Shown here piece after piece: positions 1 to 1,196 of a stretch of 1,196 nucleotides of DNA. The position numbers and the translations under genes are program-made. Every line of letters begins with the position of its first letter. Within the stretch, counting starts at the first letter, position 1. Source of the DNA: Naegleria gruberi (Eukaryota); the NCBI GenBank assembly GCA_000004985.1, contig GG739509.1; one strand, 5' to 3'. Below the pieces are notes generated by a model. That model did no database searches. It saw nothing but the letters and a program-made list of their open reading frames with translations, and was not told where the DNA came from.

Positions 1-73
1 TTTGACATTGACAAGTATTATAATCAATACAAATACCATGTGAAGAACAAACTTGTGAGGAATTTGAGGAATT
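1..73 (-). CDS. Probable continuation of the same CDS in the -1 frame, completing EGF-like unit 5; the 3' end runs off the window at base 1. The frame break at about 73-75 indicates a frameshift, a sequencing error or a pseudogenised copy.
   Basis: Read with codon first bases at plus positions congruent to 1 mod 3 (73..71 = AAT), the translation is NSSNSSQVCSSHGICIDYNTCQCQ. This matches the consensus of the preceding units (SNSS.VCS.HG.C..YNTC.C). It also restores the exact 10-residue C1-C2 spacing when joined to ENTICFG, which ends at codon 75..73. The Gly codon 75..73 and the Asn codon 73..71 overlap by one base, as expected if a single nucleotide is missing. Neither frame has a stop before base 1. 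Confidence 0.55.
56..73. repeat. Perfect 9-bp tandem duplication, tgaggaatt x2 on the plus strand. It lies in codon register with the shifted frame and encodes NSS-NSS on the minus strand.
   Basis: Plus-strand bases 56-64 and 65-73 are identical (tgaggaatt). The second copy abuts the inferred one-nucleotide frame break at 73-75. An EcoRI site (gaattc, 69-74) overlaps the junction. Confidence 0.7.
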
Positions 74-1196
74 CCAAAGCAGATTGTATTTTCGCAATAC
101 TTTCCAAAGTAATTGGATTTACATTTACATGTTTCATACGAGGTACAAGGTCCTTTGGCATTACAGACAGTTGATGAATTTGAAAGTATAGAGCCACAAG
201 TTGTTACATTACAATTATGTCCATAATATTGAGAATCACAAACACATGTATCAGTTTCTACACATGCACCGTGTGAGCTGCAAACTTGGGAATACGTATT
301 TTGAAGTCCAAAACATTCTAAAACCTCACAATTACTACCTGAACTACCAGGAGCACAAACACAAGTGTTATATTCTACACATCTTCCATGTCTTGAACAA
401 ACATTAGAAGAATTGGAAGCAACACCACTACAATATGTATTTTCACAGTAAGCACCAAAATGGTTGCTATCACATTTACAAGTGTTATAGTCAATGCATT
501 TACCATTTCTCGAACATACACTCGTATTGGTAGCCATTATATCATAGCAGATAGGTTTACAAGTAAATCCACCATATCCTGTGGGACATGTTGCCTTAAT
601 AGATCTAATCAATCCATTTTTAGCATCTGCTATCAATAACTCATTGCCTGACAAGAACAATCCTGCAGGATCATCAAACTTGGCGTCACTCAATTCACTC
701 TGGTCTTGTGCAATATGCATTCCAATGGTTGAAAATTTTCCAGAAAGTATGTTAATAGTTTTTCCATCAGAAGAAACATATCTAATATAGTTTGATCCAG
801 AATCTGTGAAAATGATGGTTCCATCCTCAGCAACCGTTAATCCCTTTGGAGTATTTAAAGATGCACTTGTTGGTAATCCACCATCTTTACTCAAGGATTC
901 AGTAGTTGCTCGAACACCATTTCCAGCAATTGTTGAGATTTTACCAGTGGAAGCTGTTACAAGTCTAATTTTGTGGTTTAAGGTGTCTGTGAAATAAATG
1001 TCACCTCCATCTGTCACAAAAAGACCATTCGGAAGATTCAATTTAGCCATTGTTGCTAAACCGCCATCTCCACAACTACTAGATGAATTGCTACAAGTTT
1101 CACCAGTACCAGCTACTGTTATAATTGTTCCATTTGTCAAAATTTTACGAATACGATTATTACCACCATCACTGAAATAGATTGATCCATCCTTGT
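73..1196 (-). CDS. Partial CDS, with the N-terminal side running off the window at 1196. It encodes an extracellular-type protein with NHL-repeat beta-propeller blades followed by tenascin/teneurin-type EGF-like repeats.
   Basis: Reverse-complement frame with codon first bases at plus positions divisible by 3 (first full codon 1194..1192 = AAG). It stays open for about 373 codons in sequence of roughly 33% GC, where stops would be frequent by chance. Translation begins KDGSIYFSDGGNNRIRKILTNGTIITVAGTGETCSNSSSSCGDGGLATMAKLNLPNGLFVTDGGDIYFTDTLNHKIRLVTASTGKISTIAGNG and continues through ATCPTGYGGFTCKPICYDIMATNTSVCSRNGKCIDYNTCKCDSNHFGAYCENTYCSGVASNSSNVCSRHGRCVEYNTCVCAPGSSGSNCEVLECFGLQNTYSQVCSSHGACVETDTCVCDSQYYGHNCNVTTCGSILSNSSTVCNAKGPCTSYETCKCKSNYFGKYCENTICFG. 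The repeated domain motifs are listed in the two domain features below. The ORF is absent from the supplied track, presumably because it has no stop and no defined start inside the window. Confidence 0.88.
595..1196 (-). other. NHL-repeat region: at least four blades of a beta-propeller, the first cut by the window edge.
   Basis: Four units each show the P.GL(F/T) ... DG(G).IYF(T/S)D..N..IR.(I/V) ... G pattern that defines NHL repeats. Blade A is about 1102..1196 (DGSIYFSDGGNNRIRKILTNGTIITVAGTG). Blade B is about 916..1068 (DGGLATMAKLNLPNGLFVTDGGDIYFTDTLNHKIRLVTASTGKISTIAGNG). Blade C is about 739..903 (KDGGLPTSASLNTPKGLTVAEDGTIIFTDSGSNYIRYVSSDGKTINILSG). Blade D is about 595..708 (FDDPAGLFLSGNELLIADAKNGLIRSIK). 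Matching to this family is by eye from the motif; a profile search was not possible. Confidence 0.75.

What the first reader, a model, noticed from the sequence alone, without database searches (positions are those of the whole stretch)
56..96. Single-nucleotide frame break inside EGF-like unit 5: pseudogene, sequencing error, or frameshift-created hydrophobic tail
Up to codon 75..73 the frame reads ENTICFG. The rest of the unit (NSSNSSQVCSSHGICIDYNTCQCQ, an unmistakable match to the repeat consensus) is only obtained in the -1 frame starting at 73..71. The two codons share base 73, so exactly one nucleotide appears to be missing. If the original frame is instead read through, it gives IPQIPHKFVLHMVFVLIIILVNVK, a run of 13 of 15 hydrophobic residues that could mimic a membrane anchor. 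Either way the locus is not a simple intact reading of the repeat array. The break lies at the edge of a perfect 9-bp tandem duplication and creates a GAATTC site, which could also point to a slippage or cloning/assembly artefact.
Basis: seen in the sequence. Interest (0 to 1): 0.6.

Follow-up and report, generated by a model that had tools for sequence, protein, structure and literature searches.

The report
One-base gap in draft Naegleria gene
One base is missing from the fifth EGF-like repeat of a Naegleria gruberi surface-protein gene, 60-75 bases from the end of a tiny Sanger draft scaffold; it is most likely a sequencing error or a very recent inactivating mutation, and the "hydrophobic tail" is just what this gene looks like when read out of frame.

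Summary
On the minus strand the frame is open from 1194 to 73 (NHL repeats, then teneurin-type EGF units). The rest of unit 5 is readable only in the -1 frame, and the unit period is 116 nt instead of 117.

The window is a complete 1196-bp Naegleria gruberi scaffold from a Sanger draft assembly. Its partial gene model (1050..340) does not reach the break.

A profile of 1729 units from 149 heterolobosean relatives scores:
- the repaired unit at 43-50 bits
- the unrepaired reading at 2.9 bits
- intact units 1-4 at 34-42 bits

The lost base must lie between 79 and 49.

The hydrophobic read-through is a generic off-frame product, because third codon positions are 54% T. Unit 2 read at the same offset is equally hydrophobic. 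Paralogs carry a genuine TM helix, and often a kinase, downstream of the array. There is no slippery site and no downstream RNA structure.

Verdict: a single-base deletion in the record. It is most likely a base-calling or assembly error at a low-coverage contig end (about 0.6), otherwise a very young pseudogene or null allele (about 0.3). Only raw reads or resequencing can separate the two. Interest is low.

The parts
2..1194 (-). Open coding region of a Naegleria gruberi NHL + EGF-array surface protein. The main frame runs 1194..73 and the -1 frame 73..2. It is open at both contig ends, with no start or stop in the window.
625..1194 (-). NHL repeat (beta-propeller blade) region, about four blades.
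   Evidence: Pfam NHL 35.2 bits (cut-off 20) and TEN_NHL 49.2 bits (cut-off 27.1). Bacterial NHL proteins match at 35-44% identity.
340..1050 (-). Extent of the public partial gene model P0001 (237 aa, 'predicted protein, partial [Naegleria gruberi]'). It ends 265 nt before the break.
85..552 (-). Four intact 117-nt (39-aa) teneurin-type EGF units: 552..436, 435..319, 318..202 and 201..85.
   Evidence: Family profile scores 34-42 bits.
1..84 (-). EGF unit 5. It is truncated by the contig end after C5 and contains the frame break.
49..79 (-). Interval that must contain the missing base. It lies between the last base of the C1 codon (81..79, main frame) and the first base of the C2 codon (49..47, -1 frame).
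   Evidence: insertion scans
63..72 (-). Best-supported position of the one-base loss. Repairs here give C-F-G-I-[L/P/A/S or P-Q]-(S)-N-S-S-Q-V-C. The sequence context is the short runs TT, CC and AAA.
   Evidence: 48-49.6 bits here against 43.0 at 76..74; 52-54.5 against 45.6 bits with the in-window profile. MAFFT places the gap between 70 and 69. Family loop position x3 is I/V/L/M/F/A in 70% of units and N in 0.9%.
56..73 (.). Perfect 9-bp tandem (plus strand TGAGGAATT x2; minus strand AATTCCTCA x2) overlapping the break zone.
   Evidence: Period of 9 or more in 0.9-2% of shuffles.
69..74 (.). The only GAATTC site in the window, inside the palindrome GGAATTCC (68..75).

Best explanation
The sequence record lacks one nucleotide in the C1-C2 loop of EGF unit 5 of an otherwise intact Naegleria gruberi gene. 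The gene encodes an extracellular NHL propeller followed by a teneurin-type EGF array.

The most likely cause is a base-calling or consensus error. That would be an under-called short homopolymer (TT, CC or AAA at 72..63, or AA at 73..72) in the low-coverage, low-quality end of a 1196-bp orphan scaffold of the 2010 Sanger draft assembly.

On this reading the real gene is in frame. It would read C-F-G-I-x-S-N-S-S-Q-V-C..., continue beyond base 1 with more EGF units, and then probably reach a genuine TM helix and possibly a kinase, as its paralogs do. The hydrophobic tail is not a product of the gene. It is the generic +1 off-frame translation of a T3-rich, Cys-rich repeat.

Shown here: the one-base deficit, its allowed interval, the coding signal moving to the -1 frame, the generic hydrophobicity of the off-frame, and the family architecture.

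Inferred: that the deficit is an error and not a real mutation.
For: Source and position:
- The window is a whole 1196-bp contig of N. gruberi (P0001 at 100% identity, longest contig 1196).
- That assembly is Sanger, with 1977 contigs and 784 scaffolds (PMC6125883; PMC9928731).
- The break lies within 49..79, so within about 80 nt of the contig end.

Exactly one base is missing:
- The unit spacing is 116 nt instead of 117.
- The Cys spacing is restored exactly by a one-base repair.
- MAFFT needs a single one-column gap.
- The best two-base removal scores lower, 39.1 bits against up to 49.6.

There is no other sign of decay:
- 374 codons upstream are open, while the other frames are full of stops.
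- The 24 codons after the break keep all four expected Cys residues. The repaired unit scores 43-49.6 bits on the 1729-unit family profile, at least as high as intact units 1-4 at 34-42 bits.
- The codon LLR of the -1 tail is +15.9 bits, within the in-frame range of 12.8 +/- 3.7.

Family norm:
- 82% of 2121 units have the 10-residue loop that the repair recreates.
- Dozens of relatives align collinearly through the repaired unit 5 to residue 397/398.

The hydrophobic tail is generic. A real TM helix lies downstream of the array in 116 of 149 relatives.
Against: - No raw reads, quality values or independent copy of the locus could be obtained. No protein of 50% identity or more exists other than the locus's own model, and two exact metagenome scans found nothing. 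Error and real mutation are therefore not directly separated.
- The break coincides with a perfect 9-bp tandem that is itself rare by chance (0.9-2%). That could point to a real templated or slippage mutation instead of a base-caller error.
- The homopolymer runs involved are short (2-3 nt).
- Large surface-protein families commonly contain pseudogenes.
Confidence: 0.6

Rival explanations
1. The one-base deletion is real in the NEG-M genome. It would be a very young pseudogene or a null allele of one member of a very large NHL/EGF receptor-like family. It may have arisen by misalignment between two near-identical adjacent 9-10-nt copies, so that the deletion 'perfected' the 9-bp direct repeat.
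For: - The frame break coincides with a perfect 9-bp tandem that is rare by chance. Whichever position in 73..63 the base was lost from, the pre-deletion sequence would have been two copies differing by one extra base. That is a substrate for templated frameshifts.
- The family is very large (1534 relatives; several N. gruberi paralogs), so loss of one member would be tolerated.
- No expressed or independently assembled copy was found in the protein collection.
Against: - There is no second lesion in 1121 nt upstream or 72 nt downstream. The unit scores as well as the intact ones, and the codon bias is intact. If the deletion is real it must be extremely recent.
- It lies within about 80 nt of the end of a 1.2-kb orphan Sanger contig, which is where consensus errors concentrate.
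Confidence: 0.3
2. The frameshift is functional. Read-through of the main frame would produce a truncated protein anchored by the hydrophobic segment FVLHMVFVLIIILV. Alternatively, a programmed -1 ribosomal frameshift or transcript slippage would restore the EGF frame.
For: - The read-through frame stays open for 24 codons to the contig end.
- It has a 13/15 hydrophobic run.
- By my own arithmetic from the translation, not a tool result, its best 19-aa Kyte-Doolittle mean is about 1.9, which is borderline TM-like.
Against: - The same offset in the intact units gives equally hydrophobic strings (unit 2: KD 1.59, 16/24 residues). The whole EGF region read at +1 has KD 1.04 against -0.32 in the true frame, because third positions are 54% T.
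- Twenty-four open codons are unremarkable, since the off-frame has only 6 stops in 178 codons.
- The codon LLR of the read-through frame is -8.2 bits.
- No X_XXY_YYZ heptamer and no homopolymer of 5 or more lies near the break.
- The downstream RNA fold has z = -0.33, and there is no Rfam match.
- Real family TM helices are stronger (KD 2.8-3.6), follow a completed EGF unit and are followed by basic residues.
Confidence: 0.03
3. It is a cloning or assembly chimera, or a mis-join at the GAATTC/palindrome site or within the 9-bp repeat.
For: - The only EcoRI site in the window, together with an 8-bp palindrome, lies exactly in the break zone.
- The break is near the contig end.
Against: - Both sides of the site belong to the same EGF unit, in the correct order and register apart from one base. 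A chimera would join unrelated sequence.
- The flanks do not resemble a vector polylinker. This is direct reading of the sequence and my own knowledge, not a tool test.
Confidence: 0.05

Closest known systems
Single-base indel errors at low-coverage contig ends of Sanger-era draft assemblies
   Same: One isolated one-base deficit in a short-homopolymer context, about 60-75 nt from the end of a 1.2-kb orphan scaffold. The gene is otherwise perfectly conserved on both sides.
   Different: This is not verified with reads. The coincidence with a perfect 9-bp tandem is not a typical hallmark of base-caller error.
Young frameshift pseudogenes or null alleles in expanded surface-receptor gene families
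   Same: A single disabling frameshift in one member of a family with hundreds of members.
   Different: No further lesions, no relaxed codon usage and no loss of conserved Cys residues. The position at the contig end is unexplained by this model.
Heterolobosean NHL - EGF array - TM - (kinase) receptor-like proteins (e.g. N. gruberi NAEGRDRAFT_70916 and NAEGRDRAFT_63569; N. lovaniensis C9374_010972)
   Same: Collinear alignment at 34-39% identity across the NHL blades and five EGF units. The 39-aa unit has the same Cys spacing 11,6,6,2,9,5 and the loop consensus C-F-G-I-L-S-N-D-S-S-V-C.
   Different: The closest relative is only 39% identical. The TM and kinase parts cannot be seen because the contig ends.
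Metazoan teneurins and tenascins (teneurin-type EGF and teneurin NHL domains)
   Same: The Pfam domain types match: EGF_Teneurin, EGF_2, TEN_NHL and NHL.
   Different: The domain order is NHL then EGF, the reverse of teneurins. No YD shell or toxin domain is seen in the window or in the four paralogs scanned. EGF_TEN scores 47.5 bits, below its cut-off of 65. This is not a teneurin.
Programmed -1 ribosomal frameshifting
   Same: The downstream frame is -1 relative to the upstream frame.
   Different: There is no slippery heptamer and no downstream stimulatory structure.

Membership tests
EGF-like domain, teneurin/tenascin type (Pfam PF07974 EGF_2, PF23106 EGF_Teneurin) | Pfam score above the curated cut-off. 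| tested here: met
   EGF_2 50.6 bits (cut-off 22.1) and EGF_Teneurin 46.4 bits (cut-off 24.3) on the repaired protein.
EGF-like domain, teneurin/tenascin type (unit 5 specifically) | Six Cys residues at the family spacing, in one reading frame. | tested here: not met
   As recorded, C1 is in the main frame and C2-C5 are in the -1 frame. The criterion is met only after a one-base repair. C6 lies beyond the contig end.
NHL repeat beta-propeller (PF01436, PF25021) | Pfam score above the curated cut-off. | tested here: met
   NHL 35.2 bits (cut-off 20) and TEN_NHL 49.2 bits (cut-off 27.1).
Teneurin (metazoan) | EGF_TEN array above its cut-off; domain order TM-EGF-NHL-YD shell. | tested here: not met
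   EGF_TEN scores 47.5 bits, below its cut-off of 65. The order here is NHL then EGF. No YD domain is found in paralogs.
Heterolobosean NHL-EGF-TM-kinase receptor-like family | Collinear homology with named Naegleria members across the NHL-EGF junction and the EGF units. | tested here: met
   P0224 (N. gruberi) aligns at 36.8% over 400 aa, query residues 2-397. P0161 (N. lovaniensis) aligns at 33.9% over residues 2-398.
Heterolobosean NHL-EGF-TM-kinase receptor-like family | TM helix, with or without a protein kinase, downstream of the EGF array. | not testable with these tools
   The contig ends inside unit 5. Paralogs have these features.
Programmed -1 ribosomal frameshift site | Slippery heptamer X_XXY_YYZ at the shift point. 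| tested here: not met
   The only such heptamers are at 1145, 859 and 738. None lies near 49..79.
Programmed -1 ribosomal frameshift site | Stable RNA structure 5-9 nt downstream. | tested here: not met
   MFE -7.3 kcal/mol, z = -0.33 against shuffles. No Rfam match.
Pseudogene | The disruption is confirmed in independent reads or DNA. | not testable with these tools
   No reads and no independent copy are available.
Pseudogene | Additional lesions or relaxed constraint (stops, lost Cys, decayed codon bias). | tested here: not met
   There is no other stop or indel. The unit 5 profile score is at least that of the intact units. The codon LLR is +15.9 bits.
C-terminal transmembrane anchor (read-through frame) | Hydrophobicity specific to this segment and not generic to the off-frame; the coding signal lies in that frame. 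| tested here: not met
   The off-frame readings of the intact units are equally hydrophobic. The codon LLR of the read-through frame is -8.2 bits.

The most novel reading that the evidence does not exclude
The deletion is real and the main-frame read-through is translated. This would give a truncated NHL + 4.3-EGF ectodomain anchored by a frameshift-born hydrophobic helix. It would be an example of a new membrane anchor arising from the intrinsically hydrophobic off-frame of a T3-rich Cys-repeat.
Probability: 0.02. Interest if true: 0.4.

Novelty: not a real feature. Interest (0 to 1): 0.08.

Why it matters
It matters little biologically.

In practice it flags a probable one-base error, or a young null allele, in an orphan scaffold of the N. 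gruberi reference. It also shows that the public gene model (1050..340) under-calls an ORF that is open across the whole contig.

There is one general lesson. Off-frame translation of T3-rich, Cys-rich repeats yields TM-like strings, so a hydrophobic tail after a frameshift should not be read as an anchor without a control.

The surrounding gene family is the more interesting object. It consists of giant heterolobosean NHL/EGF-array proteins, some receptor-kinase-like, for which I found no description. It is not the finding under review.

Tried and rejected
- Independent copies: the look-up of encoding contigs for P0001 found nothing on record. A protein search with the EGF half returned only the locus's own model. 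The full-length search returned no relative above 44% identity apart from that model. Two exact metagenome scans, one across the break and one beside it, gave 0 hits. Only family-level statistics were possible.
- Original genome paper: PMID 20211133 is not held. Literature searches for a description of the family gave nothing relevant.
- Programmed frameshift: rejected.
- Intron: rejected by reasoning. Both sides are contiguous parts of one 39-aa unit with only one base missing, and an intron cannot add a base.
- Two-base insertion instead of a one-base deletion: less good (39.1 bits, 9-residue loop). Only 2% of family units have a 9-residue loop.
- Alternate haplotype of an annotated gene: rejected, because no protein in the collection exceeds 44% identity to the window protein apart from its own partial model.

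Full report
**What is in the window.**

The coding signal is on the minus strand. One frame is open from 1194 to base 3 with no stop, while the other two frames are full of stops except at the 3' end.

The product has about four NHL blades, then a half-EGF (CPTGYGGFTC), then 39-aa EGF units. Pfam supports this: NHL 35.2 bits, TEN_NHL 49.2, EGF_2 50.6 and EGF_Teneurin 46.4, all above their cut-offs. EGF_TEN at 47.5 bits is below its cut-off of 65.

**Checking the observation.**

The main frame reads ...ENTICFG (Gly at 75..73) and then IPQIPHKFVLHMVFVLIIILVNVK. The -1 frame from 73..71 reads NSSNSSQVCSSHGICIDYNTCQCQ.

The other details also hold:
- The 9-bp perfect tandem is at 56..73.
- The only GAATTC is at 69..74.
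- The 13/15 hydrophobic run is present.

The deficit of exactly one base is shown three independent ways:
- The DNA start-to-start spacing of the units is 117, 117, 117 and then 116 nt.
- The Cys spacing 11,6,6,2,9,5 becomes exact through all five units after a one-base repair.
- MAFFT aligns unit 5 to units 1-4 with a single one-column gap.

A profile of units 1-4 scores the -1 tail at 42.1 bits, against -0.5 and -3.4 for the other frames. Shuffles of the repaired unit average -1.3 with a maximum of 7.8.

**Where it comes from.**

The best database hit is a 237-aa 'predicted protein, partial [Naegleria gruberi]' at 100% identity, whose longest contig is 1196 bp. The window is therefore an entire orphan scaffold.

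The model covers only 1050..340 and never reaches the break. The N. gruberi NEG-M assembly is Sanger-based, 40.9 Mb, 35% GC, with 1977 contigs in 784 scaffolds (PMC6125883; PMC9928731). The window is 35.7% GC.

**The family.**

An exhaustive search with the intact EGF part found 1534 relatives. Many are giant proteins of up to 7087 aa carrying as many as 25 copies of the matched stretch. The named ones come from N. gruberi, N. lovaniensis and Percolomonas.

Pfam and hydropathy scans of paralogs show this architecture:
- a signal peptide
- an NHL propeller
- an EGF array
- a strong TM helix (19-aa KD 2.8-3.6)
- a protein kinase in P0224 and P0207

A TM-like segment follows the last EGF unit in 116 of 149 relatives.

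Many relatives align collinearly with the repaired window protein over residues 2-398, the best at 39% identity. An in-frame unit 5 is therefore the family norm. No close paralogue or orthologue exists that could dictate the missing base.

**Where the base is missing.**

In 2121 units from the 149 relatives the C1-C2 loop is 10 residues in 82% of cases, with consensus C-F-G-I-L-S-N-D-S-S-V-C. Position x3 is I/V/L/M/F/A in 70% of units and N in 0.9%.

An insertion scan with the 1729-unit profile gives:

| Reading | Score (bits) |
|---|---|
| Insertion at 70..63 | 47-49.6 |
| Best two-base removal | 39.1 |
| Unrepaired | 2.9 |
| Intact units 1-4 | 34-42 |

The four-unit profile and MAFFT (gap between 70 and 69) agree.

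The hard bounds are 79..49 and the best zone is 72..63. There, restoring an A would give GGA AAT and a 19-nt perfect tandem (my reading of the sequence).

Whichever position within the first repeat copy (73..64) lost the base, the pre-deletion sequence would have been two 9-mers differing by one extra base.

**The hydrophobic tail.**

Third codon positions in the EGF region are 54% T. In the +1 offset these become second positions, which specify F, L, I, M or V.

| Reading | Mean KD | Hydrophobic residues |
|---|---|---|
| EGF region, +1 offset | 1.04 | not computed |
| EGF region, true frame | -0.32 | not computed |
| Unit 2, +1 offset | 1.59 | 16/24 |
| Unit 5 read-through | 1.58 | 16/24 |

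The off-frame has only 6 stops in 178 codons, so 24 open codons are unremarkable. The gene's own codon usage gives +15.9 bits for the -1 tail, within the in-frame norm of 12.8 +/- 3.7. It gives -8.2 bits for the read-through. The tail is a translation artefact and not an anchor.

**Programmed recoding.**

No X_XXY_YYZ heptamer and no homopolymer of 5 or more lies near the break. The downstream 70 nt fold no better than shuffles (z = -0.33), and nothing matches Rfam.

An intron cannot supply a base. A chimera at the EcoRI site is implausible, because both sides are the same unit in register.

**Error or real mutation?**

This cannot be decided without reads.

Evidence favouring an error:
- The break lies within about 80 nt of the end of a 1.2-kb orphan Sanger contig.
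- It is a single lesion in short runs (TT, CC, AAA).
- The sequence is perfectly preserved on both sides.

Evidence favouring a real event:
- The break coincides with a perfect 9-bp tandem that occurs in only 0.9-2% of shuffles. This is compatible with a templated frameshift between near-repeats.
- The family is very large and could tolerate losses.

My estimates are error about 0.6, a real young pseudogene or allele about 0.3, a mis-join about 0.05 and a functional frameshift about 0.03.

**Verdict.**

This is an ordinary single-base frame break in a draft record, and most probably not a biological feature. Interest is low. The only noteworthy by-product is the large, apparently undescribed heterolobosean NHL/EGF-array family, some of whose members look like receptor kinases, to which the gene belongs.

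Noticed in passing
window 73..675 (-) and relatives P0121-P0269: The gene belongs to a very large heterolobosean family: 1534 relatives at E<=1e-3, from N. gruberi, N. lovaniensis and Percolomonas. Members are giant proteins of up to 7087 aa built from a 39-aa teneurin-type EGF unit, 47 units in P0121 by a regex count. Several have the order signal peptide - NHL - EGF array - TM - protein kinase, so they look like receptor kinases. I found no paper describing the family.
   Followed up: partly
window 340..1050 (-): The public gene model is much shorter than the open frame (1194..73). It starts at an internal Met inside an NHL blade and stops just before GGTAGT at 339, perhaps a predicted splice donor. 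It omits EGF units 3-5 and most of unit 2.
   Followed up: partly
window 625..1194 (-): In the word-indexed search, every listed match to the NHL half other than the locus's own model was a multi-blade NHL protein at 31-44% identity. All the named ones are bacterial (Telluribacter, Streptomyces and various MAGs). The Naegleria paralogues appeared only in the exhaustive search. Whether this reflects database composition or a bacterial origin of the NHL module was not examined.
   Followed up: no
window 119..130 and 2..13 (-): There are two more perfect in-frame 6-bp tandems, TGTAAA x2 (C-K-C-K) and TGTCAA x2 (C-Q-C-Q), both at the C4-x-C5 motif of units 4 and 5. Tandems of period 6-15 occur in 35-50% of shuffles, so this is probably unremarkable.
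   Followed up: partly
window C1-C2 loops of all five units; family units: The C1-C2 loops carry N-x-S/T sequons in four of the five window units (NTS, NSS, NSS, NSS x2; unit 3 has none), and 53% of family units with a 10-residue loop have one. This suggests the loop is a conserved N-glycosylation site on an extracellular array.
   Followed up: no
window 68..75: GGAATTCC is an 8-bp perfect palindrome lying exactly in the break zone. Whether it could cause a local sequencing artefact was not testable.
   Followed up: no
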